Shown here: in pieces, positions 1 through 56,146 of the stretch
Layout: each line of letters starts with the position of its first letter
How positions within the stretch are numbered: the first letter of the stretch is position 1
From: Trypanosoma brucei
Lineage: Eukaryota
Assembly: GCA_000002445.1 (NCBI GenBank)
Contig: CP000066.1
Location: 256,001-320,000, forward strand
DNA: 64,000 nucleotides
Direction of reading: 5' to 3'
Position numbers and translations under genes: made by a program
The notes under the pieces: generated by a model
Told to the model about the DNA's origin: nothing
The model's database searches: none
The model's input: only the letters and a program-made list of their open reading frames with translations

Positions 1-3000
1 CAATGCCTGGAGTGAGGAATGTAAGCAGTCACACGACCCCTACATCCCTCTCTCAGTTACAATTTAAGGAGGTGGTGGTGGCCGGTATGTTATCACTGAG
101 GGGATCACATTGGAAAGGAAATGCGCACATGCGTTCTTTCCTTTGTCACCTTCTCTTTTACCCTCCACTATCACCCTTTTCTTTTCCAACCCTTCCCTCA
201 TCGTCATTCCAAGCTTTCAGTGGCACAGTCATCGCTCCGTCTTTTCGGCGGTGCGAGCGCGTCCTGCCCTGTCCTGCGCCATATAATAATCTCCATCCTC
301 AGATTCGCTTAAAACTTTATTATCTAGAGTAATAATCTTCCCCTACCGACGAATGAAATTCCAAGTGCATCCTTGAAACTTGTGGAGAAAAATTTGGGGA
401 AAAGGTGGCCCTTTTTAGGTGCCGTGGTGGAGTCTTTATTACCATCCACTGGTGCTGCGGCCAAATCACAGTTCCCAAAAACCTCCCTGCCGGTTCCGCC
501 GGTGCGACTGCGCTGAAAGAAAGAAAAAAGGGATATTGATCGACCGCCGGGAAGCTCCACTACCGTGCCCGTGCGGGCGCTTAACTTTTGCTCAAACGTA
601 TCTCCACTAGGTCCTTGAATTCATTCCCTGAGGTTCCTTCGCCTTACATGGGAATGCTTCATTACGTGTTAAGCGGGAACTACGGCGGAGAAAGGCCTCT
701 CCACCTTACGAACCGGCTCTCTCTCCTTTCCAAAATTCGTGTGAAAATACAGCTTCTGTGAGGACTGCTGCTTATTTATTAATTTTTTTTTTTTTGGGGG
801 GGGGGGGAGGAGGGTCGTAGGGCGCGAGGTTTTTAGCGACATTTTTGTCTTCCCTGCCCTCTGCGAGTAACGAACGCATTCAACATATTCAGTGTTTGAC
901 CCTCCATTGACGGTGGTGTTTTTTTTTTTCCATGAAGGGCGACGGCTACACAGAGTAGCGCGGACGGAAGTGATGGCGAGAAAGGCAGAAGCTCCCTCCG
1001 CTTCCAAGTCGCGAACTCACTTGGCATACCCGAAATCCCAGCCTCTATTAGGGCGTTCACTCTTTTACATCGTTTTTTTCACCTCCTGGAGTCTCGCAGT
1101 CCCGTCTTCACGGGGCTGAGGCCCCACTACTTGGCTATTTTCCAGCCATGACCAATACAGCGGCGTCCCGCACCGTGTTGAAACTGAATCATCCGTCCAA
1201 ACGCATTCATTTTCAGCCAGATTCCCGTCGTCAATAGCAACCGCAGTTCCACGCAGCGGGAAGCACTTCCCGTCTTCCCGCACCTTGAGACTAGGGTGTC
1301 CCAACCGGAGTGCAGTCTCCGTGAAACTGGGTCATCACTGAAATGTCATTACCTGGAGCCTCGGCAAAGGAAAATGTGGTTGTCTAAACGACTTTCTTGT
1401 GTGTGGCGTGTGGTGGGGACTGTTGGGCAGCATGCCCGCCCGCGTGCACACCCCAAGTGAGTTCGACAATGCACTGGTGGGTGCCAAAGGGGGTCCGAGG
1501 TCTTGTTGCTTGCGATGCGTCGCCGGAAAAACACAAACCACGGCCGGCTTTTGGTGTGGTCGGGGGTAAGGTTACGTGTCCGCGCCGTCGGTTAGCACCT
1601 TTCACGTTGGCGAGGTCAGTTCGTAGCACTTTGGGTGGTGGCGGACTGTGTGTGGGGACGGGCGCTTTGCTCGTATTGGGGTGTGTCCCCCCTTGCGGTA
1701 TGCTCCCCAATTTAAGCAGACCTTCAAGCAATGCAATGCACTTCGCTCGCTATCTACGCGCTATCGCACCCATATGCCAGTGATCGATCGCTTTAAGGGC
1801 GACATCCGCCCCCCTTTCCGAGCGATGCCTAACCGTTAGCACGTCCCCTGTAATGATTACTACGGGTGAGTTGGGAACCTTACGACAAGTTTGTCTCGAG
1901 ACCTACTTGTTCCACAGCTACTTCGCGATCCGTCACCCTGGCGACGCGGGCGCAAGGGCAAAATGGCGGAGATGCTGAAAGCGTTCACGGGTATTATGAG
2001 GTTGGCGCTTGTGCTACAGCCCGGCCCTGACGCGGCTCGCTATCGCTGCTTGATCTCCCTTCCCTGACAACGCCCTGGGGCGTGCCGCCCTGCGGGGGGT
2101 TTCCGTCAATCCCGTGACTGGATGTGGGGTTTATGTGGTTTCGGAGGGGTCATGGCGCTCTTCCGGCGTGCCCTGGTTCCCCCTGGAGACCCTTCTGCGC
2201 CAACTGTCTTTGGGAACCTGTATTTGGCGTTCTATTCCTTCTTGTCCAAGTTGTGAATGTTGTCTGACCAGCGGCGTTGCGGTTTTCCGCCCGTTCCCCT
2301 CACAGGGCAGTGTGTGTTGGGGTCCCGCCTAGAGGTCAACGGTTTCATGCAGCACAGCGTGCAGGGTCAGTAGTGTTATGCCCGGCTCTCTCCCTTGCCG
2401 GTGCCTGCTACCTTTCGTTGCCTTACTGAATATCTGTGGGAGCCGTGAGGCAGCGGTTTCCCCTGCGTCGCCGCGAAGTGTAGACCCTCTGTTGTGTTTT
2501 ACATTATTGCTGCGCTCTGCGCCGTGGCCACTTCGTCGTTCGATTACTACCGTAAGCCGGTGTGTTCGTGGTGGGTGGTTTGTTGATCACTATACCGGTC
2601 TGCACATATTTGCTGCCAATGCTTCTGTATTGGAGCACCCTCTTTGATAGTTGGGAGTTTATGCACCTGTGCTATGCGTTGCGCAGGAAACTCTCGTCGC
2701 TCGTGTGCTTGCATGGGGAACGCAGCGGAGGGGAACGTGGTTGATGAATTTGCCTTAACTGGACGCTTAGGGATATGGTGTTGCGGGAGATTACTTGGTT
2801 CCGTCCACTGGCGTTGCGTAAAAACTTGGTATAACACTCGTCGCTTCAGGCGTTTGGCCGCTTCCTCGACTCGCCAGGTTTACACCTGACGCAACTTGGG
2901 CAGGAGGTCCTATTTCGGCAATTACGGCGGATTGATGCCGGTTGAGTGACGGCGCACCTTTTAAGCGTACTGAACGGTAATTCGGCGTCTCCTCGTGTAC

Positions 3001-3854
3001 CACTGTGTGTAGGAGACGTTGATGTGTTTGAACTTACGATATTAAATATGTTCAGGACCTGTTGGAACGTTAATAAAAAAATTATGCGCCAACTTCACTC
3101 GATTGTACCAAGCGTAGGGTTTCAGAAGCAAATGTATACGTATATATTGCCCGACGGTCGTATGCTGCCACATAACGGCTTGCCCCATATAACCATTTAG
3201 CGGGGGAAGTGGTCTATCGAAAATAAGCAAAGAAAAAAAAACGACACGGTACGAGCGTGATGGAAAGTAAGGGTGCCCTTTGGACTAGATTTTCACGCTA
3301 GATTCTCTATATTGACTGCTCATGCCATGGGTGGTTGTGGGATAACAAACAAACACAAAAAAATGTGACTCCGCTACTAGCTGTTGCGCTGCATTTCATA
3401 CCGCGAGGTATGGGGAATTATCTTCTTTTTCTGAAACCAAGGAAGTGCATGCATGTGTGAGTTGCCACCTCTGCTACATATATGTTTGGGTCCATAGCCA
3501 AAAGAGCGGAAAGGGTGGACTGAATTACGCACGCATAATGGACCAATACAAAATATTTATTCTTTTCCTACCATTGCTTATCACACCTTTTCTGTTAGTA
3601 AGGGTTATTATTGTTTGTGTTTTGATACAAATGGGGTGACATATAAACTCAACATGCTGGGGGTCACAGGCGTGCGAAGGCACTGAGCGAACGGTGAACA
3701 CCCAATCACTAAGTAACCAAATGTGTTATTTCCGCCTTTGTGTGTGCCGTTGTTGAGAGCACTATGTTGTGCTTTAAGGGTACCACTGTATTTTTTCTCC
3801 TTTTCGCGTATGCTCATTTACTGATTTTAATTAGTTGCAGTAAAAGAAATAAGT

Positions 3855-5055
3855 ATGAAGAACAGTGTTGCGCGCACTCAACCAGTGCGCAAGTATGAGA
3901 ACTTTACTTTGGAGAATAACTTACCGTTGGCACTGGGGGCCAATTTTCACGATGACCCAATTTGTCGCGATACAAACAGAACTAGTCACACGTTACTGTT
4001 GCCACGGAATGTAGACTATGCCCCCCATACAGAGTACGTATTTAATGGAGGTGGCTTCAATCGGGAAAATAAGATGAGAACTATTGATGAAGAGTTTGTC
4101 GATGAGGACGAGCCTGTGTTTGATGGTTGGATGACAGTAAACTTTGATAACCCCGATGACGCGAAGGATCACGTTGTGTCCTTTCTTGCGTACTTTGTGG
4201 AAGATATTCCAGAAGGGACTGAGACTAAGATCGTGAGGAAGGTTTGCATTCGTTATTACACACAGGATAATAGCATATCTGTGCAAGAGGCGAAGCAACA
4301 AAACAGTGGTATTGTGCAATCGACCATTCTGTCCCGAAGACAAGTACCGAGAAGAATGGACAACATCAATGATATTGTTATGCTGGAAGACTTCCAAATA
4401 GGTGGAACAATTACGTTATTCAGCAGAGAGTATCATATTCTTGACATGGATGCGAGAAGCCGCCTTTATTATAAGAAGGTACTTGGTCAAACAGTGCCAG
4501 AACCGTTGCCGTGGCCAATTGAGATTGACAAATTCACTACAATGCAAGCTCAACTATCCAAAAGCACTCATCGTCTTGCTACATCTGAAGATATGGACCA
4601 GAAGCGTGCGATTGAACAACAACTGACTGGTATTTACACGAAGCATCCCACGGAAGATATTCTTACAGCTCAAAACTTCCTTCGTCATAACATAAATGAG
4701 CACCTGACATTTTTAGCCCTGTGGGACGATCGCGAAAGTCTTAGTGGCGACCTTCGCTTTGTTGTGATTCGTCTGTATCTAGAGAATAACACTGTGGAGA
4801 TTATTGAGAGAAGACAAGAAAATTCCGGGCGAATGGGCAGTTCGGTGATTTTGGGCCGTCAGCGGGTTGCTCGCCCCGGTGCGGAAGGGAGCAAAATCCG
4901 TTTCCAGGAGCATACGTTTGGTGTTATATTAAAGCGGGACTTTCTTGTGGCAGAAGACATGAAAGTGGGAGAAACATATCATATTCACGGTCGACCCTAT
5001 TTTATATACGATGCCGACGAAGCAACACGCCGTTACATGAAGAACGAACTTGGTA
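3855..5055 (+). CDS. EFHC1: N-terminal fragment of the EFHC1/Rib72-like gene (upstream of IS10 insertion)
   Basis: ORF track 3855..5093. Two DM10-type segments. The last 38 nt of that ORF are IS10 sequence. Confidence 0.75.
5047..5055. repeat. Left copy of 9-bp target-site duplication AACTTGGTA generated by IS10 insertion (right copy at 6385-6393)
   Basis: Identical 9-mer immediately abuts both IS10 termini. 9 bp is the TSD length made by IS10/Tn10 transposase. Confidence 0.9.
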
Positions 5056-6384
5056 CTGATGAATCCCCTAATGATTTTGGTAAAAATCATTAAGTTAAGG
5101 TGGATACACATCTTGTCATATGATCAAATGGTTTCGCGAAAAATCAATAATCAGACAACAAGATGTGCGAACTCGATATTTTACACGACTCTCTTTACCA
5201 ATTCTGCCCCGAATTACACTTAAAACGACTCAACAGCTTAACGTTGGCTTGCCACGCATTACTTGACTGTAAAACTCTCACTCTTACCGAACTTGGCCGT
5301 AACCTGCCAACCAAAGCGAGAACAAAACATAACATCAAACGAATCGACCGATTGTTAGGTAATCGTCACCTCCACAAAGAGCGACTCGCTGTATACCGTT
5401 GGCATGCTAGCTTTATCTGTTCGGGCAATACGATGCCCATTGTACTTGTTGACTGGTCTGATATTCGTGAGCAAAAACGACTTATGGTATTGCGAGCTTC
5501 AGTCGCACTACACGGTCGTTCTGTTACTCTTTATGAGAAAGCGTTCCCGCTTTCAGAGCAATGTTCAAAGAAAGCTCATGACCAATTTCTAGCCGACCTT
5601 GCGAGCATTCTACCGAGTAACACCACACCGCTCATTGTCAGTGATGCTGGCTTTAAAGTGCCATGGTATAAATCCGTTGAGAAGCTGGGTTGGTACTGGT
5701 TAAGTCGAGTAAGAGGAAAAGTACAATATGCAGACCTAGGAGCGGAAAACTGGAAACCTATCAGCAACTTACATGATATGTCATCTAGTCACTCAAAGAC
5801 TTTAGGCTATAAGAGGCTGACTAAAAGCAATCCAATCTCATGCCAAATTCTATTGTATAAATCTCGCTCTAAAGGCCGAAAAAATCAGCGCTCGACACGG
5901 ACTCATTGTCACCACCCGTCACCTAAAATCTACTCAGCGTCGGCAAAGGAGCCATGGGTTCTAGCAACTAACTTACCTGTTGAAATTCGAACACCCAAAC
6001 AACTTGTTAATATCTATTCGAAGCGAATGCAGATTGAAGAAACCTTCCGAGACTTGAAAAGTCCTGCCTACGGACTAGGCCTACGCCATAGCCGAACGAG
6101 CAGCTCAGAGCGTTTTGATATCATGCTGCTAATCGCCCTGATGCTTCAACTAACATGTTGGCTTGCGGGCGTTCATGCTCAGAAACAAGGTTGGGACAAG
6201 CACTTCCAGGCTAACACAGTCAGAAATCGAAACGTACTCTCAACAGTTCGCTTAGGCATGGAAGTTTTGCGGCATTCTGGCTACACAATAACAAGGGAAG
6301 ACTTACTCGTGGCTGCAACCCTACTAGCTCAAAATTTATTCACACATGGTTACGCTTTGGGGAAATTATGAGGGGATCTCTCAG
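5056..6384 (+). mobile_element. IS10: Complete bacterial insertion sequence IS10 (IS4 family; the IS of Tn10), 1,329 bp, with outside end CTGATGAATCCCCTAATGATTTTGG... and inside end ...GGGGAAATTATGAGGGGATCTCTCAG
   Basis: Seen directly: the terminal sequences match the IS10 outside and inside ends as I remember them. The length is exactly 1,329 bp. It carries one 402-aa ORF whose sequence I recognise as the IS10/Tn10 transposase (MCELDILHDSLYQFCPELHLKRLNS...HGYALGKL). It is flanked by a perfect 9-bp direct repeat. Its composition and codon usage are unlike the surrounding trypanosomatid DNA. Confidence 0.93.
5163..6371 (+). CDS. tnpA: IS10 transposase (DDE transposase, IS4 family), full length 402 aa, no frameshift or premature stop
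   Basis: ORF-track protein 5163..6371 is recognisably the Tn10/IS10R transposase, and it lies entirely inside the IS10 ends. Confidence 0.93.
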   Translation: MCELDILHDSLYQFCPELHLKRLNSLTLACHALLDCKTLTLTELGRNLPTKARTKHNIKRIDRLLGNRHLHKERLAVYRWHASFICSGNTMPIVLVDWSDIREQKRLMVLRASVALHGRSVTLYEKAFPLSEQCSKKAHDQFLADLASILPSNTTPLIVSDAGFKVPWYKSVEKLGWYWLSRVRGKVQYADLGAENWKPISNLHDMSSSHSKTLGYKRLTKSNPISCQILLYKSRSKGRKNQRSTRTHCHHPSPKIYSASAKEPWVLATNLPVEIRTPKQLVNIYSKRMQIEETFRDLKSPAYGLGLRHSRTSSSERFDIMLLIALMLQLTCWLAGVHAQKQGWDKHFQANTVRNRNVLSTVRLGMEVLRHSGYTITREDLLVAATLLAQNLFTHGYALGKL

Positions 6385-6393
6385 AACTTGGTA
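6385..6393. repeat. Right copy of 9-bp target-site duplication AACTTGGTA
   Basis: See left copy at 5047-5055. Confidence 0.9.
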
Positions 6394-7532
6394 TTGAACT
6401 CGCACCGTGTGTAGACATAAAGCCTATCCTTGCCTCCGACGAGAAAAAGCCAATAATATTCTTTCCTCCCCCACCAAACGGCTTTGGGAGCGAACGAGAA
6501 AACCGATCAAGTTGGCTAACTTTAAATCCAAGGCCGATGCGCCGTGATGTTGAAAAAATTGAAAAAGAAGAGGGCAGGGTCATGAATTTTTTGGCGGAGT
6601 TGGCCAATCCTTTGGTCCGCGGTGATGAGAAGAGGAGATTTGTTATATCCTTTTTTAGAGAAACTGATGAAATGTCTATTTATGAAAAACCCGAACGGAA
6701 CTCAGGTTACCTTGCCGGGAGGTTTCTTGCAAAAGGTGTTTATCGGAAACCAATGCCAGATGGCTCAACCGTTCCCTACACGGCAGAGGACTTCCAGGTT
6801 GGGAAGGAGATTACAATACTTGAGCGTCCTTTTCGTCTCCTCGATATGAGTGAAGAGACGAAGAGGATACTTACCGTAACGGAGCAACTCCCTTCTGAGC
6901 AGCGGCTGAAGGAGTTACTTCTTTTATTCAAGCAGCAAATTCAGCTAAAATTTACTCGTGGCCACGAAGCCTACTGTACATTGGCTCCTAAGGGAGTATT
7001 GGGCTATCGTCAGGTTCGCGAATTCTTAAGGTCGTGTAGCTGTTCTATAACCGAGGACGAAGCACTCCTCCTCGTACACAACCTCGTTCCTTCTAGTGCC
7101 GGAGTGATTTCATTTAATGAGTTCATGGATTTGGTGAACATAACCTCTTCAGAACATATGGATGAAGCTTCACTGACGGTGCGCTCTGTAAAGAGCGTAA
7201 ACATGACAAAAGACGAATCACTGAAGACAGTAGCTATCAAAACAGAGGACGTGAAACGAAGGAAACAGCTTGCAGTTGAGTTACGCCAAAAGTTGATCCA
7301 AAGGAAGGGTTCCGTACAGGAGCAGTTTCGCCTCATTGGTTGCCACAGCGCATCATCCCGGTTAAATCGAGATGTTTTCCGCCACTCACTGAACGAAGTA
7401 ATGCACTTTAACGTTCCTAAGACGGACGAGGATATGCTTGTGTCACTCCTTTTCGATGGGAGAGCTGACGAAAACGGCGACATAACGTACAAGCAATTCC
7501 AAGAATTCCTTGAGGTTCAGGATGATATCTAG
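6385..7532 (+). CDS. EFHC1: C-terminal fragment of the EFHC1/Rib72-like gene (downstream of IS10). The ORF track starts at an internal Met at 6537, but the frame is open from the IS10 end.
   Basis: Same frame as 3855. Third DM10-like segment and EF-hand-like C-terminus. Confidence 0.75.
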
Positions 7533-7778
7533 ATTTTATTTTTCAAAAATTCTCCATCGTGGATGTGAACAAATACACGAATGATATTATGTTTTAAATT
7601 TTTATTCATTGATATGTATACTGGTGATGTTAGATTAGCTAGAGAGGAACTGCAACATAGGTAATCGAAACCGATACAGTAGTTTTTGTATTGAATGTTG
7701 GTAGCAGCGGTCGGTTGACTGTTTAATGGCTCAGTTTGTCGCATTTTTGTAATACTTCGTTGGTGCCATAGCTGCCTT

Positions 7779-9158
7779 ATGTTCATTTGTCCTCTCTGCG
7801 TGTTGTTTCTTCAGACTAGTTGTATGAGGAATGCCCCATTGCTCTTGTTTGGAGCGGGTGGAACCCTCGGAGGGGTTAAAAAGATAGCCAATCCTAAGAC
7901 TATTCCGTACCACAGTTGGGTGCTTTCAGAAAAGTCGAGGGTCCTATTAGACTCTATTCACCATCCTCTAGTCACAGAATACTTTCTTCGACTAAACATG
8001 AGGCGTGTGGGGCTTGAACAACAACAAGAGTGCGCTGACTTGGCTTCACTGCACACTAAAGTCGGGGACACTTCTTACAATCACGTGATGTGGAATATTC
8101 AGTACAGAGATGAACTGGACGTGTCGGAGAGGCTATCAGCCCATTTACTGAAGATTAATGACAACATAAAGTTGAAGGACCAACTTCATTCACATGAAAC
8201 TCTGTCAGACGACGATCGGGATATATTACTCATGGTAGAAGAAGATGTCCGGGAGCTCGTTGAGAAGGTTCGTGACATGGATAGTGACGTGAATGCCGTC
8301 ATGACGCGGCGTCTCAATTTGAGTGATGCTCTGGGATCATGTACCAACACATGGTCGCTTGAGGTTGCTGGAAAGGCTGGTGGCGAGGAGGCATCTCTAT
8401 TTGCATCTGAGTTGCTCGAGATGTATAGGGCATACGCAACTGAAATAAGGCATTGGAGCGTTGATGTGGACGGTGGTGAAGGAGATGGCGAGCCCGTTAG
8501 TTCCGGTGGTCCTGCAGTCGGTGGAAATGGAATGAAAATTAAAGTTAAAGGGGAAGGGGTGTACCGCAATCTACGGCATGAGATTGGGGTTCACAAGGTT
8601 CAACGGGTACCCGTTACCGACCAAGATGGAAAGATGCAAACCTCTACAGCTGTGGTTACTCTGATGCCCGTGCTTGACCCAGTTTCTGTTGATGTTCACG
8701 AAAAGGATTGCAACATTGAATTCGTTCGGGGGTCAGGACCAGGGGGTCAGGGAATGCAAAGCAGTTCCAACGCCGTTTGTTTAACGCATAAACCATCTGG
8801 TATATCAGTCAAATGTCACCAGTCCCGGTCGGCTCTTGGAAATAAGGAACTTGCGCTACAGATGGTCGCCCAACAACTGTTGGTACGTCGTGTAAAGGAC
8901 CAAAATTCTTCTCTTCATGAGACGTGGTGCAATCAATGGAGCAGTGGAGAGCGATCAGACAAAATGAGGACGTACAATTACCCACAAAACCGTGTCACTG
9001 ATCATCGCCTCGGGAGGGATTACTCCTTGGGAACGTTTTTAGATGGCGGTGCTGGTCTGGTGGGATTGCACGATGACCTTAACGCAATCGATGATAGGCA
9101 ACAACTTGTACGAGTGCTTTTGCAACATATTGAGAGCGACTTCAACTGTGTTACGTAA
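7779..9158 (+). CDS. Peptide chain release factor, class I RF1-type (probably organellar/mitochondrial)
   Basis: GGQ motif in RF-1 domain context (VRGSGPGGQGMQSSSNAVCLTHKPSGISVKCHQSRSALGNKELAL). PCRF-like region upstream. The hydrophobic/basic N-terminus is consistent with a presequence. Confidence 0.85.
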   Translation: MFICPLCVLFLQTSCMRNAPLLLFGAGGTLGGVKKIANPKTIPYHSWVLSEKSRVLLDSIHHPLVTEYFLRLNMRRVGLEQQQECADLASLHTKVGDTSYNHVMWNIQYRDELDVSERLSAHLLKINDNIKLKDQLHSHETLSDDDRDILLMVEEDVRELVEKVRDMDSDVNAVMTRRLNLSDALGSCTNTWSLEVAGKAGGEEASLFASELLEMYRAYATEIRHWSVDVDGGEGDGEPVSSGGPAVGGNGMKIKVKGEGVYRNLRHEIGVHKVQRVPVTDQDGKMQTSTAVVTLMPVLDPVSVDVHEKDCNIEFVRGSGPGGQGMQSSSNAVCLTHKPSGISVKCHQSRSALGNKELALQMVAQQLLVRRVKDQNSSLHETWCNQWSSGERSDKMRTYNYPQNRVTDHRLGRDYSLGTFLDGGAGLVGLHDDLNAIDDRQQLVRVLLQHIESDFNCVT

Positions 9159-9390
9159 AGGAAAAAAAGTGACAGAGAGAAGACGTGGGTGCCTAGTTCT
9201 ATCAATCGGTACTGCGATCCTTATTCGAGTGAGCAACCCGTGTTACTCTAAACTGATGTACCTTTTTTCACCCTGCTTGGAGGTTAATAGTCCGATATAG
9301 TTATTGCTGGCCTTTTGTGCACTTTCATCTGCACCCTATTGAGTCTACTTGGAAACTATTAATAGCCAACAACCAGCTGAGGGATAACGG

Positions 9391-10188
9391 GTGACGAGTA
9401 CTGGAACATTACAAGAAGCAACAGTATTTTCGATGGCACAGGAGGGATTGAAAGAGGTAACGGATTCTCCATATTTTCTTAAGAAGTGGCTTGCCTTTAT
9501 CGATTACGCAGCCAATGACCTTTTCGGAGGCCCGCGGCCCCTCAAGGCAGCCCATGTCATCAATCTGCAGAAGGGCGGGACGCTCTTCTTTTGCTTGTGG
9601 TTGATGAAGAAGTCTGGTAACTACTCCGCAACGGCGATAACATATACCGCCCTTCATGGTGGATACGGTCTCTGCTGGTTACTGAAAGAGCTTGTTTTCC
9701 CAGATCCAAAGTGGCAAAAACACATCACGTTTGCAGGGGCTCTCACCATATTTGCCTCTGTTCTGGGACCCTACTGGTATATTGTATACAATGCAATTAT
9801 AAGAAAGGCAGAGCGTTCTGAGGGTGCACTCTGCGCAGCAACTCTTGTATACTTAATTGGACTTGTAATGATGATGTGCAGTGACTGTCAAAAATACTTC
9901 GTGTTGAAGAAAAAGAAGGGTCTTATAACTGATGGTTTTTTCTCTCGTATTCGGCATCCTAATTACCTTGGGGAGATGATGATCTATGGTACGTTTGGCT
10001 TCATCTCGAATCATGTGGGGTCCTTTGGGGTTCTTGCGTGGGTTTGGGTAGGACTGTTTCTCCCTTTCATGATTCAAAAGGAGGCAAGCATGAGTCGCTA
10101 CAGTGAATGGAGGGCGTACAAAAGCCGGACTGGTTTCTTGCTACCAAGTGTTCTTCCTCCGAAGCAGAAAACTACAACGGTAGAATGA
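9391..10188 (+). CDS. Polytopic membrane methyltransferase of the ICMT/PEMT superfamily (isoprenylcysteine carboxyl methyltransferase-like)
   Basis: Several hydrophobic helices. C-terminal signature FSRIRHPNYLGE…FG…EASMSRYSEWRAYKSRTGFLLP matches the RHPxY–EE family motif of the ICMT/phospholipid-methyltransferase superfamily. Confidence 0.6.
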   Translation: MTSTGTLQEATVFSMAQEGLKEVTDSPYFLKKWLAFIDYAANDLFGGPRPLKAAHVINLQKGGTLFFCLWLMKKSGNYSATAITYTALHGGYGLCWLLKELVFPDPKWQKHITFAGALTIFASVLGPYWYIVYNAIIRKAERSEGALCAATLVYLIGLVMMMCSDCQKYFVLKKKKGLITDGFFSRIRHPNYLGEMMIYGTFGFISNHVGSFGVLAWVWVGLFLPFMIQKEASMSRYSEWRAYKSRTGFLLPSVLPPKQKTTTVE

Positions 10189-10610
10189 TGCAGCGCGAGC
10201 ATTCGAAGTTAGTTCTTTTCTCCCATCAATATTAGTGGGGCTATGGTTCTATCCCATCTTCAGTGTGGTCGGCTGCGTTTTTTTCCTTTTACTTGGCGTG
10301 CTGTAGCTCGCGAAACCATCACTCCATCATTTGCCGGTTTTCACCCCACTTAGTTTAGGGGACGGAAATTGCTTGTGTTTCTTAAATTTCTTGGGCGGTT
10401 ACCTCTCTTCACATCACCAGGCAATGCACGTGTATATTTAACTAAACGCTGTGCTTCACGCGGGGTTACCCCGACTTTAGAAATTGTGGTTATGTTTTTT
10501 CCACCTTCCTTTTGCCCTTCAGGAGTATCAAAGTTAGAGTGTGTTGTGCTGGTGCGACAGTGAAAAGACAAAAATAAAGGGCAATACACATCTCACAAAC
10601 CGAGTTAACC

Positions 10611-10889
10611 GTGTACCAAAGGACGAGCAAGATGAGCTCACTATTGTCTGCAGCCGACGCGAAAGTTGCGGGGAAGGGTTATCCGCCAGCTGACAATTCC
10701 AAGACGTACACGGAAGTACCCCGGCACCAGGTGCCTGCTAAGGGACCTATCAGGTCTTTTTTGTCACTCGTTAGCACGGAGTTCGCCCTTAACACTATGG
10801 ACACCACAGAGCGAGTTTTTACTGTTTTGCTTTGTGTGGCGTTTATCTCTTTAGTTCTTTGGTTGCTCAACCTTGTCTTTATTTCCTAG
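10611..10889 (+). CDS. Possible small tail-anchored membrane protein (92 aa) in a 1.2-kb spacer; hypothetical
   Basis: Same strand as neighbours. The soluble N-part is followed by a single C-terminal hydrophobic helix (VFTVLLCVAFISLVLWLLNLVFIS). No homology recognised. Confidence 0.25.
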   Translation: MYQRTSKMSSLLSAADAKVAGKGYPPADNSKTYTEVPRHQVPAKGPIRSFLSLVSTEFALNTMDTTERVFTVLLCVAFISLVLWLLNLVFIS

Positions 10890-11366
10890 CCACGTGGACA
10901 TTGAAGGAATTTTGGTGGTTGCCGCTCGCCGGGGCGCTGCCTCTGGAGCGGACCCAAACCTGTTGAAGGTCAAGTGTGGCGTATGTGCGTAGCGAATTGT
11001 TCTTGTTATGCCTGTGCATCCCTGGCCGCGTTATCCACTTTTCTTCTGTTACCCATTGCAGTGTAAAAAGATTTGTGCTTTGCGCTCGGTGCGTATGTAT
11101 ATCCGCGATTCGTTGGTGTGGTGACTAGCGATGGGTTAATTTTTTACGCTCTTTCTTGTGAAAGGTTACTAGAAGTGCAGTGTGACCTCTATTCTCCCCC
11201 TTTAGTCATCCATTAGGTACATATTGCTTTTGAAAATTGAATCTGCATAGGCTACATTCCCCTCATGATTTCCCCCTTAGCATATCTCGGCTGGCTTTCC
11301 CCTCTGTTGATCTCTCTAAATCCTTTATAATGCTGTTGTTGCGACGCACGTATGTTGATTAGTTAG

Positions 11367-12005
11367 ATGACGTACTGCCCCATTACGCGAAAGGAGTTGG
11401 AGAGGTACCTTCCGAACTTCGATCCTCTCCTTGACCCGCAAATTGGGGAATGGGTGCTTGTAACCCCGGAGCGTCGCTTTGCTATCCTTGGTCCACTCTT
11501 GCAGTTTGTCCAAGAACATGCGATTAAACCAATCTATCCATTTCTTGACAATAGTGAACCATCATCTGCCCCCGTGACGACCTTTAATTTTTGCAAAGAA
11601 GACTCACCTAAAACACTGGGCGATCCATCTAAGGTGTTCCCCACGCTGAGTGAAGTGTGGCGGAGGTACCGCCGTCGTCGGTTCCACATTTCTGGCATGG
11701 ACGAGGATGGAATCGGAGAGGAGGAGGAAAATGATGACACGATACTGTACCTAAATCCACGGGCCCTGTTGCTCACACCGTGTGCTCCAGCCGTGTTTGG
11801 GGGCTCTGATTTTATTGAAGGATTGGATAGGGAAGGTGAGCGGGTGGTGTTCGTAAACTGGAAAACAGGGGAGACTCGCACCGATAGCGGGGTGTTGAAG
11901 CCGGCTCCGATTCCAGCATGGGCAGAAGATGTTGCGGAAAAGGCTGCCATGGAGTGGGAGTCATGGAAGAAATGTGTGATTCCTCCCTCATCAACCAGAG
12001 AGTGA
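11367..12005 (+). CDS. Hypothetical protein, 212 aa
   Basis: Long + strand ORF in register with the polycistronic array. No motif recognised. Confidence 0.5.
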   Translation: MTYCPITRKELERYLPNFDPLLDPQIGEWVLVTPERRFAILGPLLQFVQEHAIKPIYPFLDNSEPSSAPVTTFNFCKEDSPKTLGDPSKVFPTLSEVWRRYRRRRFHISGMDEDGIGEEEENDDTILYLNPRALLLTPCAPAVFGGSDFIEGLDREGERVVFVNWKTGETRTDSGVLKPAPIPAWAEDVAEKAAMEWESWKKCVIPPSSTRE

Positions 12006-12863
12006 CATGGTGGGACTTCCTCTTCGTGGGGAAATAACGGAGAATAGGGGAAGGAAGTTGGAGGTGGTACAAGTGCGCTGGTGCTACCGCGGGAAATGCG
12101 TCGGGCCCCACGTGACCGTCAGCCTTGTGAACCACACAGGCGGCGGCGAAGGTCAATGGATGTTTGGGGGTTTGAAAAAGGTGATCAAAGAAAAGGGTGC
12201 TTATTTACATTGAATGAGGTTCCGTATCGTAGTTGGTCGTGTGGAAGGCGGACGCAAATTTTCTTCCACACCCCACTTGCTTTTTTGCACGGGGATTTAA
12301 GTGCACATGGAGCGGACTGGCACTGTGTTTGATTTTCCGGAGTTATTCTGTAACCGGTGCCACTATTTGGAATATCGTAACACGGTAGGTGACATTCTTT
12401 TCATTGGCTTTCTTGTATAGTGTTCGGGCCAATAACTTTCTTTGCAGGAAATGTGAACCAAACATTGGCTTCCATTGGTGGCCCTTGTGATGGGAGTCTT
12501 TGGGAATGGTAATCTTACGCGAGCGTCCAGCCACTTGTTGTCCGCTAATATGGCACTAATATCGACTAACCGGATCCGAAGCAGCGGTGGGGCTTACTCC
12601 ATGTGTTCCTGGTGCAGTTTCTGTTGCGTAACGTTGCACTATTTTTTGAAGGGGGTCAAGTTGAGGGATGGCGGCAAAGGGATGTGATGAACCAAGAACA
12701 TTTGCTGCTTGCATTGTGTTGTTCCTAATCCGGCGTTGTAATTTCACGTTTATATTTTTTGCGGCGATGGAACTTTTTTTCTTGATGTCAGGCGTCATGA
12801 AAGACTGCTCTGTCGTCCATAGTCTGGTCTGGGAAGCAACTAAGCTGTTCCTGAGGAGCTTTC

Positions 12864-14153
12864 GTGTTCACTATTCGGGACAGCTGCACAACATTAGTTC
12901 TTGATCTTGTACATGCAACTTTCTTTTTATTTACAAAAAGCAGACGAAGCCAGAGGGACATGAGACGCGCTTGTGTACATTTTGCCCGAGCCATCAAGGC
13001 AACACAAAACCTTACTCATTTGGAGGTCTTCACACAGCTTCAACTAGGTATCCACCCGCCGTTGAGTACTCAGCGTCAATTCCTTCAACAACACTTTGAT
13101 GTGGAGATGGAGCGTCGAGGTATAACAGAGACAAAACTCTTAGCTATGGATGGGCACCTCTGTACTCAGCTACTCCGTCAGTTGTTGTTTGAGCGGTATC
13201 TATCAGTTCCGTTTCGTCTTTTCACCTTTGATTTGGAGTTTACGGGGCCGCCTGTGTTTGGACCTGATGGCCCTACCGAGGATATCATGGAGTTTGGGTT
13301 TTATTCTCCGGCTCATGACAAAGTGTTTTCGTGTCTCGTTCGGCCGAGCAATGGTCGCTGTGTTTCTCCCGAGGTAACAACTCTAACGCACATAACTCAG
13401 AAGATGCTAGAGGAAGACGGTCTTCCCTTTCGAGATGCTTGGGCAAAGGTGCTTGATTTTCTTAATACACCGGAACCCCAGGAGCTCCCCGGTGCTGAGA
13501 AGCGGCTGCTTGTGCTCAGTCACGGAGGAAAATTGGCTGACGTTTCCTTGATCAAGTGGACTCTGGAAGCGTCGGGTATGGAGCTCCCTTCAAACATTAT
13601 TTTTGGTGACACGTTTCATTTGATTCGCGACGCCCATCGTCGTCGGCCGGTGACATTGGATAAGCACCCACCCACTTGGGGCCTCAGTGACCTTGTGCAG
13701 TGGTTGCGGATACCCCCAACGCTTCCTGCCCACCGCGCAGGTAACGATGCGAAGATGACATGGGACGCCTTGTATCACACGCTGGAGCGCTATGGTGACG
13801 AGGATTTGACACCGCGTGAACAACTTGTCTCACGGTTCTTTGATGTGGAAGCCAAACAAGTGATGAGTCAAGCCGGAATACGCAGTCATGCGCAGCCTGA
13901 TGGGACGTTGGAAAATGATACCAGTTACATGGAAGCTTCTGTTAGCGACTCCCTCGACCTTGACTTTGATGAGATATTTACCCCTGACGGAAAGCAGCGA
14001 CCTGAAGTGTCAGAAGACCGTACGGACGATGTTCCTGACGGTTCGAAAGGGGAGAGTCACAGTGGTGCATCCCGCGGAAAGGTGCGAAGTGGAAAACGTA
14101 ACGGTAGGAGCAGTTCCAGCGGCGGGGATCGTGGAGAGGAGTTCATCATTTAG
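12864..14153 (+). CDS. DEDDh-type 3'-5' exonuclease domain protein (DnaQ/RNase T/ERI-1-like)
   Basis: Exo I motif FDLEFTG, central hGG/D block (LLVLSHGGKLADVSL), Exo III motif HRAGNDAKMT (H-x-A-x-x-D-A). Basic/acidic low-complexity C-tail. Confidence 0.75.
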   Translation: MFTIRDSCTTLVLDLVHATFFLFTKSRRSQRDMRRACVHFARAIKATQNLTHLEVFTQLQLGIHPPLSTQRQFLQQHFDVEMERRGITETKLLAMDGHLCTQLLRQLLFERYLSVPFRLFTFDLEFTGPPVFGPDGPTEDIMEFGFYSPAHDKVFSCLVRPSNGRCVSPEVTTLTHITQKMLEEDGLPFRDAWAKVLDFLNTPEPQELPGAEKRLLVLSHGGKLADVSLIKWTLEASGMELPSNIIFGDTFHLIRDAHRRRPVTLDKHPPTWGLSDLVQWLRIPPTLPAHRAGNDAKMTWDALYHTLERYGDEDLTPREQLVSRFFDVEAKQVMSQAGIRSHAQPDGTLENDTSYMEASVSDSLDLDFDEIFTPDGKQRPEVSEDRTDDVPDGSKGESHSGASRGKVRSGKRNGRSSSSGGDRGEEFII

Positions 14154-14402
14154 TCTTTTTTTCTGACTTATCCTTTCAATGGTTTAAAGTAGATCGTGCT
14201 CTGACTCTTATTTTTGCCACCGAGCCGTTTCGGTGTGCCCGAAGGGAGAGTCCTTTAACTTTTGCTCCAGGTTATCCACGCTGTGGAATTTCTCATGGAT
14301 TTACATCATCAGCATTCAACGAAGGAGCACGTGACCATTGCTGCCGAGGCGTAACAATATGTCAGGAAAGAAGAGTATTGTACAATCATTCATGAAAATA
14401 AT

Positions 14403-14405
<3 letters not shown>

Positions 14406-14437
<32 letters not shown>
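14406..14437. repeat. (AT)16 microsatellite in the exonuclease–IFT38 spacer
   Basis: Seen directly. Confidence 0.95.
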
Positions 14438-14440
<3 letters not shown>

Positions 14441-14797
14441 GACATTAGTCGGTGCGAAAAACAACGACACACACATATTCGCATAAGACAGTACAATTCA
14501 CTCCCAAGGTCTGGCTTTTTGTGCTCTTTTTTTCACCAATGTCACCGAACCTTCTGTGCACCGTTTTTTTTTCTGTGATGCAATTAATTTTGTACTTAGA
14601 TAGTAGGGAGTTGCAAAATACAATTCTTGCTGTCAACTCGTTTTGTGGTTTCGTTCCAGACGTACGTATTACAATCCGTTGCTCATATTGGCGTGAGTCA
14701 GGCATAACGCCCCCCCCCCAAAAAAAAAAGAAGACGATATATTTGTTAGCTTTGCGTATAAGGTTAGCATCGGCTCCACCACGTCGAAACAGTCGAA

Positions 14798-16231
14798 ATG
14801 TCTTTTAGAGAGCTTCGTTCCTTTGCAGAGACGATGCGGTTGTTGGGCTACCCCAACCTAATCAGTATGGAGTCATTCCGAAATCCCAATGTGGAGTTGG
14901 TGGCGGATTGTCTCTTTTGGCTCATTAAACGCTACGAGCCATCCGCGGAAATTGTGTACGAAATAGAACGTGAAGCCGATCGAGTGTTTTTCTTCAAACA
15001 AGTATGCGAGGTGGCTTTGGCCAAGGGGAGGGTGAAGTTGAACATAAAGAAATTATACCAATCTGACGGGAACGCTGTGCAGGAAATGCTTATCTTAGCG
15101 AATGTACTGAAGAAGGCTATGAATACGACCGGGCTGGAGGAAATTGATCATGCTACGTTGCAGCAGGTGATTGCGCAGAGGAATGTGCAGGATGCCAAAC
15201 GTGTGCAGCAACTTTGCAGTGATTTGACGAACGATGGAAGTTCGCTCTTTTTTCTCATCGAAGAGGAAACAGGTCAGAGGGGGGAACGACAACGCGTTCT
15301 ATCGCGAGCTACAGAGGTAGGTGAATTTGAGCGCCGGCTCCGTGAAGTACTGAAGGATGTGACCACACAAGTGGAGCAACTGCAGGCATCTATTGCGAAC
15401 CTCAGTGCAGACGAGACAACGCTCGAGCAGAAGATTGAGAGCAAAAAAACCCAGTTGGAGCGAACGCAGAAGCGCCTAAAGTCCCTGAACGCTGTTCGCC
15501 CCGCTTTCATGGAAGAGTATGAAAAACATGAGGGCGATATGCACTCGCAGTTTGTCATATACCTTGAGCAGTACCGTAACTTGGAGTACCTCGAACACGA
15601 ACTCGCGAAATTCAATGCTGCGGAGGATGCCTTACTGGAGGAACATGAAACAAAGCTGCGGGTGATGCGTGAACGGCTGCGCAGGGAGGAATTAAACGCC
15701 CTTCGAGGGGAAGCGGGCCGCAAACGTGGTAGTCGCTCTGAAAACGACGGGGCGCCAAAGATTGGTGGACAAGGTAATGGTCCTGAAGGTAATGGAAGTT
15801 CTGCTGGCCCCCGCGTTCCTAAAGCGAGTGGAAACATGCGCGATGCTGCTTTAGAAGGCAGCAGTGGAAGTGACTCGAGCGGTGATTCGCAAGAAGAGGA
15901 ACATATACGCCCACAAGGAGCTTTGGGCCGACCGCGTCCCACAGCAGGACCTTCCACCAACCCACCACCGCGTGCCGGCCCAGATGGCTACGATGACTCC
16001 AATGCGGGTGGGAGGTCGGTGCGGCCGGGATTATCAGTTCGAGGAAGTTCTCCACCAGACCGCAATATGCGTGGACCGCCACCTGGTGGTGCTGGTGGAG
16101 GCGGTATGAGTGATGTTGACAGTGACTCTTCTGATGATGACGATGATGATGATGACGACTCTGACATCGATACTTCAGAGATTAGCATCGGTAGTGACGA
16201 TTCAGGTTCGGAAAGCAGCAGCGACCTCTAG
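14798..16231 (+). CDS. CLUAP1: Intraflagellar transport protein IFT38 / CLUAP1 (qilin) homologue
   Basis: The N-terminus MSFRELRSFAETMRLLGYPNLISMESFRNPNVELVADCLFWLIKRYEP…DRVFFFKQV…LNIKKLYQSDGNAV closely matches the conserved CLUAP1/IFT38 N-terminal calponin-homology (CH)-like domain. Coiled-coil middle, then an aspartate-rich acidic tail. Confidence 0.8.
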   Translation: MSFRELRSFAETMRLLGYPNLISMESFRNPNVELVADCLFWLIKRYEPSAEIVYEIEREADRVFFFKQVCEVALAKGRVKLNIKKLYQSDGNAVQEMLILANVLKKAMNTTGLEEIDHATLQQVIAQRNVQDAKRVQQLCSDLTNDGSSLFFLIEEETGQRGERQRVLSRATEVGEFERRLREVLKDVTTQVEQLQASIANLSADETTLEQKIESKKTQLERTQKRLKSLNAVRPAFMEEYEKHEGDMHSQFVIYLEQYRNLEYLEHELAKFNAAEDALLEEHETKLRVMRERLRREELNALRGEAGRKRGSRSENDGAPKIGGQGNGPEGNGSSAGPRVPKASGNMRDAALEGSSGSDSSGDSQEEEHIRPQGALGRPRPTAGPSTNPPPRAGPDGYDDSNAGGRSVRPGLSVRGSSPPDRNMRGPPPGGAGGGGMSDVDSDSSDDDDDDDDDSDIDTSEISIGSDDSGSESSSDL

Positions 16232-16912
16232 TCAACCTACTTCTCACCACTGCTTAATTTTTTTTTCTTTGATTCCACCGTGCTGCCGTCTTTTCCACGT
16301 GGTTGTGCAATGGTGTGACTGAATGTAATAGAGATGCAGCAATGTCGGTTCATTGTGCGAGTGCCTCGCGCTTGAGGGGTAGCACTGGTATATTTGAGAC
16401 GTGATGTATGAGGGTTCCATGCACTGTGTCGCTTCATGCTGTCACTGTATGCGCACAGGAACCCTCCGCGTTATCTCTCCCTTTATATATATATATATAT
16501 TAAATCCAAGAGGGGGAAAAAATGACGCCACCATTTCTCCGTATGATCATACATGTCTGCGTTCTTCGTGTGTTTTCTTGTTGTTGTTATCTAATCCCTT
16601 TGCTTGAAGGCGACGGCGGTTGCCACTCCAACACTGTGAACTTGTTCGAAAGGGATGACGAGCTCATGAGAGATGTTGAAAACAGTCAGTTGGCTTTTCA
16701 ATGTTTTTTTTTTGTCCCCCTGTTGCTCCAACTCCGTGGTAGAAAACGTGGGAGTAAAGTAATTTAGTGAGGCAACAGTACAGTTGGAGAGGGGCCCCTT
16801 CCGAATGTACGCATTGTGTTTACCTGCAGAAGGAACGCTACTGACTTTGCACAGGAGGTTTTGAGAGAGAAAAAAAGGCGCAAGAAGGTGGAGAAACAAA
16901 GATTTCAAATGA

Positions 16913-17108
16913 ACCACAAGCAAAAAAAAAAAATAATAATATATATATATAGAGAGAGAGAGAATGGAAGGAAAGGTGAAGTTGAAGAAAAAAAGGTAGG
17001 GAGAGAAAACAAAAAAGAACAGGCGAAAGATGCAGGAAAAAAAAAATGAGAATGTGAAAGAGAGAAGTTGAGGGTAGTGTGAAGGGGTTATTGAGGGTGA
17101 AGAAGCTG
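16913..17108 (+). repeat. About 200-nt sense-strand polypurine (GA/A-rich) tract in the IFT38–Ran spacer. A second one lies at about 18380-18475 downstream of Ran.
   Basis: Seen directly: almost exclusively A/G on the + strand (…agagagagagagaatggaaggaaaggtgaagttgaagaaaaaaaggtagggagagaaaac…). Confidence 0.8.
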
Positions 17109-17211
17109 TTCAAATGCTGCTTTACCTCCTTTTTTCTAAAAAAATTCTCCATTCACTTGTTCGTGCATATGCTTGTGAGTAAGGAGCGTACACGCTGCAT
17201 AGGTATATTAC

Positions 17212-17320
17212 GCTTTCCTTTATTCTTTTAATCTCTTGTGTCGTTTTAAAGTTATGCTTGTGAATACCGTTTACTTCTTCTATTTCCGTTACTGCTGATG
17301 TTATTCTTGGTGTTCTGGTG
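17212..17320 (+). promoter_or_regulatory. Polypyrimidine-rich region upstream of Ran (candidate trans-splice/polyadenylation control region)
   Basis: C/T-rich stretch between the upstream polypurine tract and the Ran ATG. Confidence 0.35.
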
Positions 17321-17589
17321 TGTACGGGGTGTAGTGTGCAATATCCTAAGCGAAGGGTAAGATTTATTTGGGGAATCCCTTGAACTACTGCAGTGTTCCA
17401 CTTCAGAGCAATAAAAGGAGTTATCTTCCTACACGAAAGGGAAAACAACAATTAGAAGGCCGATCTAAAAAAACAAACAAAGAAAGAACCAACAATAACA
17501 ACACGGGAATAGACATAGTGCAAGTATATCAGGAAATATACAAGGGAGAGTCGTAAAAAAAAAAAAAAAGTAAATAAACATAAATAAAA

Positions 17590-22136: not shown

Positions 22137-22262
22137 TCGGACCCTTCCTTGCTTGCCTTGACCCAGGAGTTTTTCCTTTCCTTTTTCTGTTCGCCTTTTC
22201 GGCTGTGGCCCTCCCTTCCCTCCCTTTACATTTTTTTGTTGTTTCTACTTTACCGTCTCGTA
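22137..22262 (+). promoter_or_regulatory. Polypyrimidine tract ending in AG about 4 nt upstream of the SURP-protein ATG. Candidate spliced-leader trans-splice acceptor region (and coupled polyadenylation signal for the upstream gene).
   Basis: About 125 nt, >80% C/T (cccttccttgcttgccttgaccc…ctttaccgtctcgtag|gcaATG). In kinetoplastids, polyY-AG elements direct trans-splicing. Confidence 0.5.
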
Positions 22263-22266
22263 GGCA

Positions 22267-48195: not shown

Positions 48196-48209
48196 ATATA
48201 TATATACAT

Positions 48210-48259: not shown

Positions 48260-48264
<5 letters not shown>

Positions 48265-56144: not shown

Positions 56145-56146
<2 letters not shown>

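What the first reader, a model, noticed from the sequence alone, without database searches (positions are those of the whole stretch)
3855..7532. IS10 lies in frame inside an EFHC1/Rib72-like flagellar gene; precise excision restores one 779-codon ORF
ORFs 3855..5093 and 6537..7532 share the same reading frame, as does the transposase. Deleting IS10 plus one TSD copy (1,338 bp = 446 codons) joins …MKNELG to IELAPCVDIK… with no stop. This gives a protein with three DM10-like segments and a C-terminal EF-hand-like region, the EFHC1/Rib72 architecture of axonemal protofilament-ribbon proteins. The absence of any secondary decay (no frameshifts or stops in either half) supports a very recent, post-cloning insertion. 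If the insertion were genuine, it would be a null allele of a conserved flagellar gene. Annotation pipelines will otherwise report two bogus 'genes' (a 412-aa one with an IS-encoded tail and a 331-aa one starting at an internal Met).
Basis: partly seen in the sequence, partly recalled or inferred. Interest (0 to 1): 0.65.

Follow-up and report, generated by a model that had tools for sequence, protein, structure and literature searches.

The report
Known IS10 cloning artefact splitting CARP4
A bacterial jumping gene (IS10) from the E. coli cloning host landed in a cloned piece of Trypanosoma brucei chromosome 3 and split the flagellar gene CARP4/RIB72B in the reference sequence; the reading is correct, but this artefact has been documented since at least 2010, so it is ordinary.

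Summary
A complete 1,329-bp IS10 lies at 5056..6384, flanked by a perfect 9-bp duplication, AACTTGGTA. It matches E. coli copies at 100% identity and is of the IS10-Right type. It carries the 402-aa DDE transposase and the antisense RNA-OUT.

Removing IS10 and one duplication copy (1,338 bp) joins 3855..5055 to 6394..7532. The result is one 779-codon ORF with no stop. Its product is residue-for-residue identical to "CMF34/CARP4" of T. b. brucei 927 and to chain 0G of PDB entry 9e2g. It has three DM10 domains and weak C-terminal EF-hand signals.

T. equiperdum and T. b. gambiense carry the exact empty site. Sixteen homologues, from other trypanosomatids to unnamed environmental sequences, align across the junction without a gap.

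It is not new. Kolev et al. 2010 describe Tb927.3.1050 as a Tn10 transposase and relay GeneDB's note that it is a BAC-construction artefact absent from genomic DNA. Gould et al. 2013 merged Tb927.3.1040/60 into the 779-aa CARP4 and showed by PCR that the ORF is contiguous in strain Lister 427.

Interest is low. The finding is already known.

The parts
3855..5055 (+). 5' part of CARP4/CMF34 (a RIB72-family gene; historical gene model Tb927.3.1040): codons 1-400 plus the first base of codon I401
   Evidence: ORF. The fusion is identical to P0054 and to PDB 9e2g_0G.
4164..4454 (+). DM10 domain 1 (aa 104-200)
   Evidence: Pfam PF06565, E = 1.1e-21 on the fragment.
4677..5027 (+). DM10 domain 2 (aa 275-391). 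It ends 9 residues before the insertion point.
   Evidence: Pfam PF06565, E = 3.8e-22 on the fragment.
5047..5055 (.). Left copy of the 9-bp target-site duplication AACTTGGTA
   Evidence: It is present once in T. equiperdum and in T. b. gambiense. It fits the NRCNNNGYN consensus quoted in PMC2758499.
5056..6384 (+). Complete IS10 (IS10-Right type), 1,329 bp. The outside end is at the left and the inside end at the right.
   Evidence: 100% identity over its full length to E. coli IS10/ISVsa5 copies. It has 1 mismatch to the tetD-side copy of Tn10 in R100 and 16 to the other copy. The terminal inverted repeats match at 17 of 23 positions.
5101..5170 (-). RNA-OUT, the IS10 antisense RNA (IS10 nt 46-115)
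   Evidence: Rfam RF00240, 98.8 bits against a gathering score of 41, E = 2e-19.
5163..6371 (+). IS10 transposase gene, 402 aa (historical gene model Tb927.3.1050)
   Evidence: ORF. Pfam DDE_Tnp_1, E = 1.5e-24. It starts at IS10 nt 108. Kolev 2010 names it Tn10 transposase.
6385..6393 (.). Right copy of the 9-bp target-site duplication AACTTGGTA
6394..7532 (+). 3' part of CARP4/CMF34 (historical gene model Tb927.3.1060): the rest of codon 401 through codon 779 and the stop. The 6537 ATG of the mechanical ORF is internal Met449.
6555..6860 (+). DM10 domain 3 (aa 455-556)
   Evidence: Pfam PF06565, E = 1.4e-22 on the fragment.
6993..7133 (+). EF-hand-pair-like segment (aa 601-647), below the Pfam threshold
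   Evidence: PF13499, 21.8 bits against a cut-off of 30.
7467..7514 (+). Degenerate EF-hand-loop-like segment near the C-terminus (aa 759-774), below the Pfam threshold
   Evidence: PF00036, 15.8 bits against a cut-off of 25.4.

Best explanation
The window is Trypanosoma brucei brucei TREU927 chromosome 3 sequence derived from a BAC clone. While the clone was propagated in E. coli, a resident IS10-Right copy transposed by cut-and-paste into the insert. As IS10 always does, it duplicated 9 bp of target (AACTTGGTA). The insertion landed inside codon I401 of CARP4/CMF34, in the linker between the second and third DM10 domains.

CARP4/CMF34 is a RIB72/EFHC-family microtubule inner protein of the flagellar A-tubule and the orthologue of Leishmania RIB72B. 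In the living parasite the gene is intact and encodes the 779-aa protein. The split into a 412-aa ORF, a transposase and a 331-aa ORF exists only in the deposited sequence.

What is shown here: the IS10 anatomy and its identity to E. coli copies, the duplication, the restoration of the exact 779-aa protein, the empty sites in sister taxa, and collinearity with homologues. What is taken from the literature: absence of the insert from genomic DNA and from other BACs, absence of RNA-seq reads on the transposase, and PCR evidence of contiguity in Lister 427. What is inferred: the identity of the host strain and the moment of transposition.
For: IS10:
- It is 1,329 bp with a perfect 9-bp duplication.
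- It is 100% identical to E. coli copies, which are found in 1,968 of 5,426 complete E. coli genomes.
- It is of the IS10-Right type.
- It has RNA-OUT and a DDE transposase.
- The rest of the window, 6394..64000, contains no other E. coli DNA. Positions 1..5059 match T. equiperdum at 99.5%.

The restored gene:
- The excision product equals the 779-aa UniRef 'CMF34/CARP4' of T. b. brucei 927 and PDB 9e2g chain 0G. The next best PDB match is 'RIB72B' in 9e78.
- The empty sites in T. equiperdum and T. b. gambiense are base-for-base the in-silico excision product.
- The excised CDS differs from the T. equiperdum CDS at only 6 of 2,340 nt.
- Sixteen homologues align without a gap at the junction.

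Literature:
- Kolev 2010 (PMC2936537, Fig. S2) reports no RNA-seq reads on Tb927.3.1050 and a single transcript spanning 1040 and 1060. It relays GeneDB's statement that the insertion is a BAC artefact absent from genomic DNA and from other BACs.
- Gould 2013 (PMC3811416) amplified and sequenced a contiguous ORF from Lister 427 and describes a 779-aa CARP4.
- Bachmaier 2023 lists Tb927.3.1060 and Tb427_030010200 as 779 aa.
- Kobori 2009 (PMC2758499) shows IS10 transposing into plasmids in DH10B, and cites Kovarik 2001 for IS10 being a major contaminant of eukaryotic database sequences.
Against: Nothing substantive. I could not inspect raw TREU927 reads or the other BACs myself, so absence from genomic DNA rests on the cited papers. 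The fit of the duplication to the IS10 target consensus NRCNNNGYN is weak evidence, because 1 site in 67 bp fits it. The site matches only 3 of the 6 specified bases of the stricter hotspot consensus NGCTNAGCN, which I quote from memory.
Confidence: 0.97

Rival explanations
1. The IS10 is really present in the T. brucei TREU927 genome. This would be a bacterium-to-trypanosome transfer that created a null allele of CARP4.
For: Only that the sequence as deposited contains it, with a clean target-site duplication.
Against: - The element is 100% identical to E. coli copies and shows no divergence.
- The two gene halves show no decay and encode exactly the protein modelled in PDB entry 9e2g.
- No RNA-seq reads map to the transposase, and GeneDB reports it absent from genomic DNA and other BACs.
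- The ORF is contiguous in Lister 427, T. equiperdum and T. b. gambiense.
- IS10 transposition needs its own transposase expressed from a bacterial promoter, which is established knowledge of IS10.
Confidence: 0.01
2. This is an assembly or contamination artefact. E. coli reads were mis-joined into the trypanosome contig, with no physical insertion in any clone. Gould et al. speak of a 'sequence contaminant' and a possible 'assembly error'.
For: Gould 2013 uses this wording. E. coli DNA does contaminate BAC preparations.
Against: A mis-assembly would not give a complete element that ends exactly at both terminal repeats. It also would not sit between a perfect 9-bp duplication of a host sequence that is single-copy at the empty site. 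That is the signature of real transposition. No other E. coli DNA is in the window.
Confidence: 0.02
3. The two halves are naturally separate genes, with homologues ending near the insertion point, and the fusion is fortuitous.
For: None found.
Against: All 43 hits at E <= 1e-100, including every kinetoplastid-named homologue, are single proteins of 659-865 aa, and all but the 659-aa one cover 97-100% of the fused query. Sixteen of them align with no gap at the junction. The deposited chain of the solved structure is the 779-aa sequence.
Confidence: 0

Closest known systems
Tb927.3.1040 / Tb927.3.1050 / Tb927.3.1060 of the T. brucei TREU927 reference (the documented Tn10/IS10 BAC artefact in CARP4)
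   Same: It has the same three-ORF layout of 5' half, transposase and 3' half, and the same merged length of 779 aa. The merged sequence is identical to the T. b. brucei 927 CMF34/CARP4 entry. The downstream gene content fits T. brucei chromosome 3, including a kinetoplastid Dicer-like gene about 46 kb downstream.
   Different: Nothing detectable. This appears to be that locus itself. The window's accession is not given, so the identification rests on sequence and gene layout.
IS10-Right of Tn10 (IS4 family), as carried by E. coli K-12 cloning strains
   Same: It shares the length (1,329 bp), the 17/23 imperfect terminal repeats, the 9-bp duplication, a 402-aa DDE transposase starting at nt 108, RNA-OUT at nt 46-115, and GATC sites at nt 67 and nt 1320. 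It has 1 mismatch to the tetD-side copy in R100 and is 100% identical to many E. coli copies.
   Different: Only its location, inside cloned eukaryotic DNA.
RIB72 / EFHC1 / EFHC2 family of A-tubule microtubule inner proteins
   Same: It has three DM10 domains followed by a C-terminal EF-hand-like region. It gives strong matches to RIB72/EFHC chains in doublet-microtubule structures from Chlamydomonas (6u42), Tetrahymena (8g2z), human (7ung), bovine (7rro), Leishmania (9e78) and T. brucei (9e2g).
   Different: It is one of four trypanosomatid paralogues and is longer (779 aa against about 613-650 aa for EFHC1/RIB72). The EF-hand signals are below the Pfam cut-offs. In T. brucei it was also picked up as a cAMP response protein in an RNAi screen.

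Membership tests
IS10 (IS4 family insertion sequence) | Element of about 1,329 bp bounded by imperfect terminal inverted repeats (CTGA...TCAG) | tested here: met
   Positions 5056..6384 span 1,329 bp. The first 23 bases of the two ends match at 17 positions.
IS10 (IS4 family insertion sequence) | 9-bp target-site duplication | tested here: met
   AACTTGGTA lies on both sides and is single-copy at the empty sites in two sister taxa.
IS10 (IS4 family insertion sequence) | Single 402-aa DDE transposase | tested here: met
   ORF 5163..6371 matches Pfam DDE_Tnp_1 at E = 1.5e-24. RefSeq annotates the matching E. coli copies as 'IS4-like element ISVsa5 family transposase'.
IS10 (IS4 family insertion sequence) | Antisense RNA-OUT overlapping the transposase start | tested here: met
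   Rfam RF00240, 98.8 bits, at 5101..5170 on the - strand.
IS10 (IS4 family insertion sequence) | Near-identity to reference IS10-Right rather than IS10-Left | tested here: met
   There is 1 mismatch to the tetD-proximal copy of Tn10 in R100 and 16 to the gltS-proximal copy. Calling the tetD-proximal copy 'Right' rests on my recollection of the published Tn10 map.
RIB72/EFHC family (axonemal protofilament-ribbon / A-tubule inner proteins) | Three tandem DM10 domains | tested here: met
   PF06565 matches at aa 104-200, 275-391 and 455-556. The whole-protein E-value is 1.2e-67.
RIB72/EFHC family (axonemal protofilament-ribbon / A-tubule inner proteins) | C-terminal EF-hand domain | tested here: inconclusive
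   EF-hand_7 scores 21.8 bits against a cut-off of 30 at aa 601-647. EF-hand_1 scores 15.8 bits against 25.4 at aa 759-774. Gould 2013 and Bachmaier 2023 describe one EF-hand.
RIB72/EFHC family (axonemal protofilament-ribbon / A-tubule inner proteins) | Sequence homology to experimentally placed RIB72/EFHC chains | tested here: met
   It is identical to 9e2g_0G. E-values are 3.5e-274 to Leishmania RIB72B (9e78_1O), 2e-56 to human EFHC1 (7ung_T) and 3.7e-53 to Chlamydomonas RIB72 (6u42_6T).
RIB72/EFHC family (axonemal protofilament-ribbon / A-tubule inner proteins) | Physical location in the A-tubule lumen of doublet microtubules | not testable with these tools
   This is inferred from the chain name in PDB entry 9e2g and from Doran 2025 (PMC7617938). 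That paper places four RIB72 paralogues in an A-A-A-B-C-D pattern, one every 8 nm, in the A tubule. I could not inspect the coordinates.
E. coli IS cloning artefact in a eukaryotic database sequence | The element is identical to host-strain copies, and the disrupted gene shows no decay | tested here: met
   Identity to E. coli copies is 100%. The excised ORF equals the deposited native protein sequence.
E. coli IS cloning artefact in a eukaryotic database sequence | The insertion is absent from uncloned genomic DNA and from independent clones of the same strain | not testable with these tools
   This is reported by GeneDB as relayed in Kolev 2010, together with the absence of RNA-seq reads. 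PCR in Lister 427 is reported by Gould 2013. Here I could show absence only in sister taxa.

The most novel reading that the evidence does not exclude
The IS10 copy is not purely a clone artefact and exists in at least part of the TREU927 parasite population. That would be a bacterial insertion sequence transferred into a trypanosome chromosome and knocking out one allele of a RIB72 paralogue.
Probability: 0.005. Interest if true: 0.7.

Novelty: already known. Interest (0 to 1): 0.06.

Why it matters
The value is practical, not scientific. The locus is a textbook case of host-derived IS10 contaminating a eukaryotic reference genome. A clean 9-bp duplication together with 100% identity to E. 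coli copies is enough to diagnose such a case from sequence alone.

Anyone using old TREU927 chromosome 3 records should merge Tb927.3.1040 and Tb927.3.1060 into the 779-aa CARP4/CMF34 (RIB72B orthologue) and discard Tb927.3.1050. The community has already done this (Gould 2013; the 779-aa Tb927.3.1060 entry in Bachmaier 2023; PDB 9e2g). The finding therefore carries no new biology.

Tried and rejected
- **Exact look-up of the two half-ORF products.** Neither the 412-aa nor the 331-aa product is in the 15-billion-protein collection. This fits their having been annotated as pseudogenes, and it gives no independent support for them as genes.
- **Search for more bacterial DNA in the window.** Megablast of 6394..64000 against all complete E. 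coli genomes found nothing. ARAGORN found no tRNA genes. The only Rfam hit is RNA-OUT.
- **The DH10B genome paper.** PMC2293198 is not held in the library. The link to a particular host strain therefore rests on Kobori 2009 and on my own recollection that the TREU927 BAC library was propagated in DH10B.
- **The paper behind PDB 9e2g/9e5c.** It could not be found in the library. I therefore use only the chain name and sequence from the PDB search.
- **Any meaning in the shared reading frame of the transposase and the host gene.** None was found. In-frame stops separate them.
- **The target-site consensus as evidence.** It is too permissive to carry weight, with 937 fitting sites in 62.7 kb.
Full report
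**1. The observation**

The mechanical ORF list shows three + strand ORFs: 3855..5093 (412 aa), 5163..6371 (402 aa) and 6537..7532 (331 aa). All three start coordinates are 0 mod 3.

The sequence between the outer ORFs is a complete insertion sequence. It begins CTGATGAATCCCC at 5056 and ends GGGGATCTCTCAG at 6384, a length of 1,329 bp. Its terminal inverted repeats match at 17 of the first 23 positions. It is flanked by a perfect 9-bp direct repeat, AACTTGGTA, at 5047..5055 and 6385..6393.

Deleting the element and one repeat copy removes 1,338 bp, which is 446 codons. This joins 3855..5055 to 6394..7532 in a 2,340-nt ORF of 779 codons, with no internal stop. It reads ...RRYMKNELG|IELAPCVDIK....

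The left ORF's last 12 residues (TDESPNDFGKNH) are read from the IS end. The right ORF starts at internal Met449. So every number in the finding is right.

The shared frame of the two halves follows simply from 1,338 being divisible by 3. The transposase sharing that frame is a coincidence, and stops separate it from the left ORF.

**2. What the insert is**

- The 1,329 bp are 100% identical over their full length to IS10 copies in E. coli, which RefSeq labels 'IS4-like element ISVsa5 family transposase'. Matches occur in 1,968 of 5,426 complete E. coli genomes.
- The 402-aa ORF has a DDE_Tnp_1 domain (E = 1.5e-24) and starts at IS nt 108.
- Rfam finds the IS10 antisense RNA, RNA-OUT, at 5101..5170 on the minus strand (98.8 bits against a gathering score of 41).
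- Against Tn10 on plasmid R100, the element has 1 mismatch to the tetD-side copy and 16 to the gltS-side copy. By the published Tn10 map, as I recall it, this makes it IS10-Right, the active copy.
- The duplication fits the IS10 target consensus 5'-NPuCNNNGPyN-3' quoted from Kovarik et al. 2001 in PMC2758499. One position in 67 fits that consensus in this window, so this adds little.
- No other part of the window from 6394 to 64000 matches any E. coli genome.

**3. What the interrupted gene is**

The fused protein has three DM10 domains at aa 104-200, 275-391 and 455-556 (whole-protein E = 1.2e-67). It also has two sub-threshold EF-hand matches, at aa 601-647 and 759-774. The insertion sits in codon I401, nine residues after DM10-2 and 54 before DM10-3, which is in an inter-domain linker.

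The homology search found 43 hits at E <= 1e-100, of 659-865 aa; all but the 659-aa one cover 97-100% of the fused query. The named ones come from Trypanosoma, Leishmania, Leptomonas, Phytomonas and related kinetoplastids. [quoted passage not shown]

The fused sequence compares with the closest entries as follows:

| Sequence | Difference from the fused 779-aa product |
|---|---|
| UniRef 'CMF34/CARP4', T. b. brucei 927/4 GUTat10.1 | Identical |
| T. equiperdum protein | 3 residues |
| T. b. gambiense protein | 1 residue, apart from that model's 29-aa N-terminal extension |

In the PDB, the fused sequence is identical over 1-779 to chain 0G, 'CMF34/CARP4', of entry 9e2g. The next best match is 'RIB72B' of entry 9e78 (E = 3.5e-274). 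After that come EFHC1, EFHC2 and RIB72 chains from human, bovine, mouse, Chlamydomonas and Tetrahymena doublet-microtubule structures.

Doran et al. 2025 (PMC7617938) report that trypanosomatids have four RIB72 paralogues. These bind the A-tubule lumen every 8 nm in an A-A-A-B-C-D pattern. The gene is therefore the T. brucei orthologue of RIB72B.

**4. Empty sites and collinearity**

I retrieved the orthologous loci of T. equiperdum (L001) and T. b. gambiense (L002). The window aligns to T. equiperdum at 99.5% identity over 1..5059 and at 99.99% over 6384..13532. Only IS10 is unmatched.

At the junction, both sister genomes read GACGAAGCAACACGCCGTTACATGAAGAACGAACTTGGTATTGAACTCGCACCG... This is base-for-base the in-silico excision product, with a single AACTTGGTA. 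The excised CDS differs from the T. equiperdum CDS at 6 of 2,340 nt.

A MAFFT alignment with 16 homologues shows no gap at the junction. These range from T. vivax to distant unnamed environmental sequences. The following motif, FYPPPPNGFGSE, is conserved among the trypanosomatid sequences and more loosely in the distant ones. Each sequence has about 384-447 residues before the junction and about 372-420 after it. The finding's own refutation criteria are therefore not met.

**5. Mechanism**

The best explanation is cut-and-paste transposition of a resident IS10-Right from the E. coli host chromosome into the BAC insert during clone propagation.

The clean duplication and complete ends show a real transposition event in the clone, not a mis-assembly of contaminating reads. 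The 100% identity to E. coli copies and the complete absence of decay in the host gene show that the event was very recent.

The papers supply the tests that need wet-lab or raw data:

- **Kolev et al. 2010** (PMC2936537, text and Fig. S2). [quoted passage not shown] - **Gould et al. 2013** (PMC3811416). They named the merged gene CARP4 (Tb927.3.1040/60, 779 aa, three DM10 domains plus one EF-hand). They amplified and sequenced a fragment spanning the central part from Lister 427, which proved a contiguous ORF.
- **Bachmaier et al. 2023** (PMC10354285). They list CARP4 as Tb927.3.1060 and Tb427_030010200, 779 aa, and call it orthologous to Chlamydomonas Rib72 and human EFHC1.
- **Kobori et al. 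2009** (PMC2758499). They document spontaneous IS10 insertion into plasmids in DH10B and JM107. They cite Kovarik 2001 for IS10 being a major contaminant of eukaryotic database entries.

**6. Context of the window**

All credible long ORFs lie on the + strand, as expected for a kinetoplastid polycistronic unit. Their Pfam matches are:

- mitochondrial-type release factor (PCRF/RF-1)
- DUF1295
- RNase_T exonuclease
- Cluap1 (an intraflagellar-transport protein)
- a Ras/Rab GTPase
- DNA polymerase delta subunit B
- a Surp-module protein
- a GPN-loop ATPase
- TAP42
- Sec24
- SLX1
- a kinetoplastid Dicer-like protein
- a PP1-type phosphatase
- PRP38
- NPL4

This fits T. brucei chromosome 3.

**7. 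Verdict**

Both the observation and the interpretation are correct. The case has been documented in the literature for more than a decade and has since been corrected in community resources. It is already known and of low interest. The residual novel reading, a genuine IS10 in the parasite genome, has a probability well under 1%.

Noticed in passing
window 1..3854: At least 3.8 kb upstream of CARP4 has no ORF longer than 128 aa on either strand. The stretch is G+C-rich (55-60% at about 1250-2750) with a strong excess of T over A (AT skew down to -0.44). It is also less conserved against T. b. gambiense than the region downstream of the insertion site (97.9% with 11 gap openings against 99.4%). 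It may be a long UTR or intergenic stretch, or an unannotated non-coding feature.
   Followed up: partly
L002 6001..6087 versus window 3768..3854: The T. b. gambiense gene model is 808 aa and carries a 29-aa N-terminal extension (MLCFKGTTVFFLLFAYAHLLILISCSKRN). That extension is not open in this window, where there are in-frame stops just upstream of the 3855 ATG. It is also absent from the 779-aa PDB and T. equiperdum sequences. The gambiense start codon is probably called too far upstream.
   Followed up: partly
window 28558..31098, 32014..39003, 39734..42091: Three large + strand ORFs of 846, 2,329 and 785 aa. The 846-aa and 785-aa ORFs have no Pfam match at E <= 0.001. The 2,329-aa ORF was not scanned. 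They are presumably kinetoplastid-specific proteins.
   Followed up: no
window 50319..53165: A 948-aa ORF with the kinetoplastid-Dicer-specific KptA and La-HTH domains and a weak RNase III match. It is a Dicer-like gene. From memory this would be TbDCL2 (Tb927.3.1230), which fits the chromosome 3 assignment.
   Followed up: partly
window 14406..14437, 48196..48259, 56148..56178, 18387..18441: Three (AT)n microsatellites of 16, 32 and 15.5 copies, and an A-rich imperfect repeat, all in intergenic regions.
   Followed up: no
window 14798..16231: A Cluap1 (intraflagellar-transport protein) homologue (Pfam E = 4e-98) lies about 7 kb downstream of CARP4. It is a second flagellar gene in the same transcription unit.
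   Followed up: no
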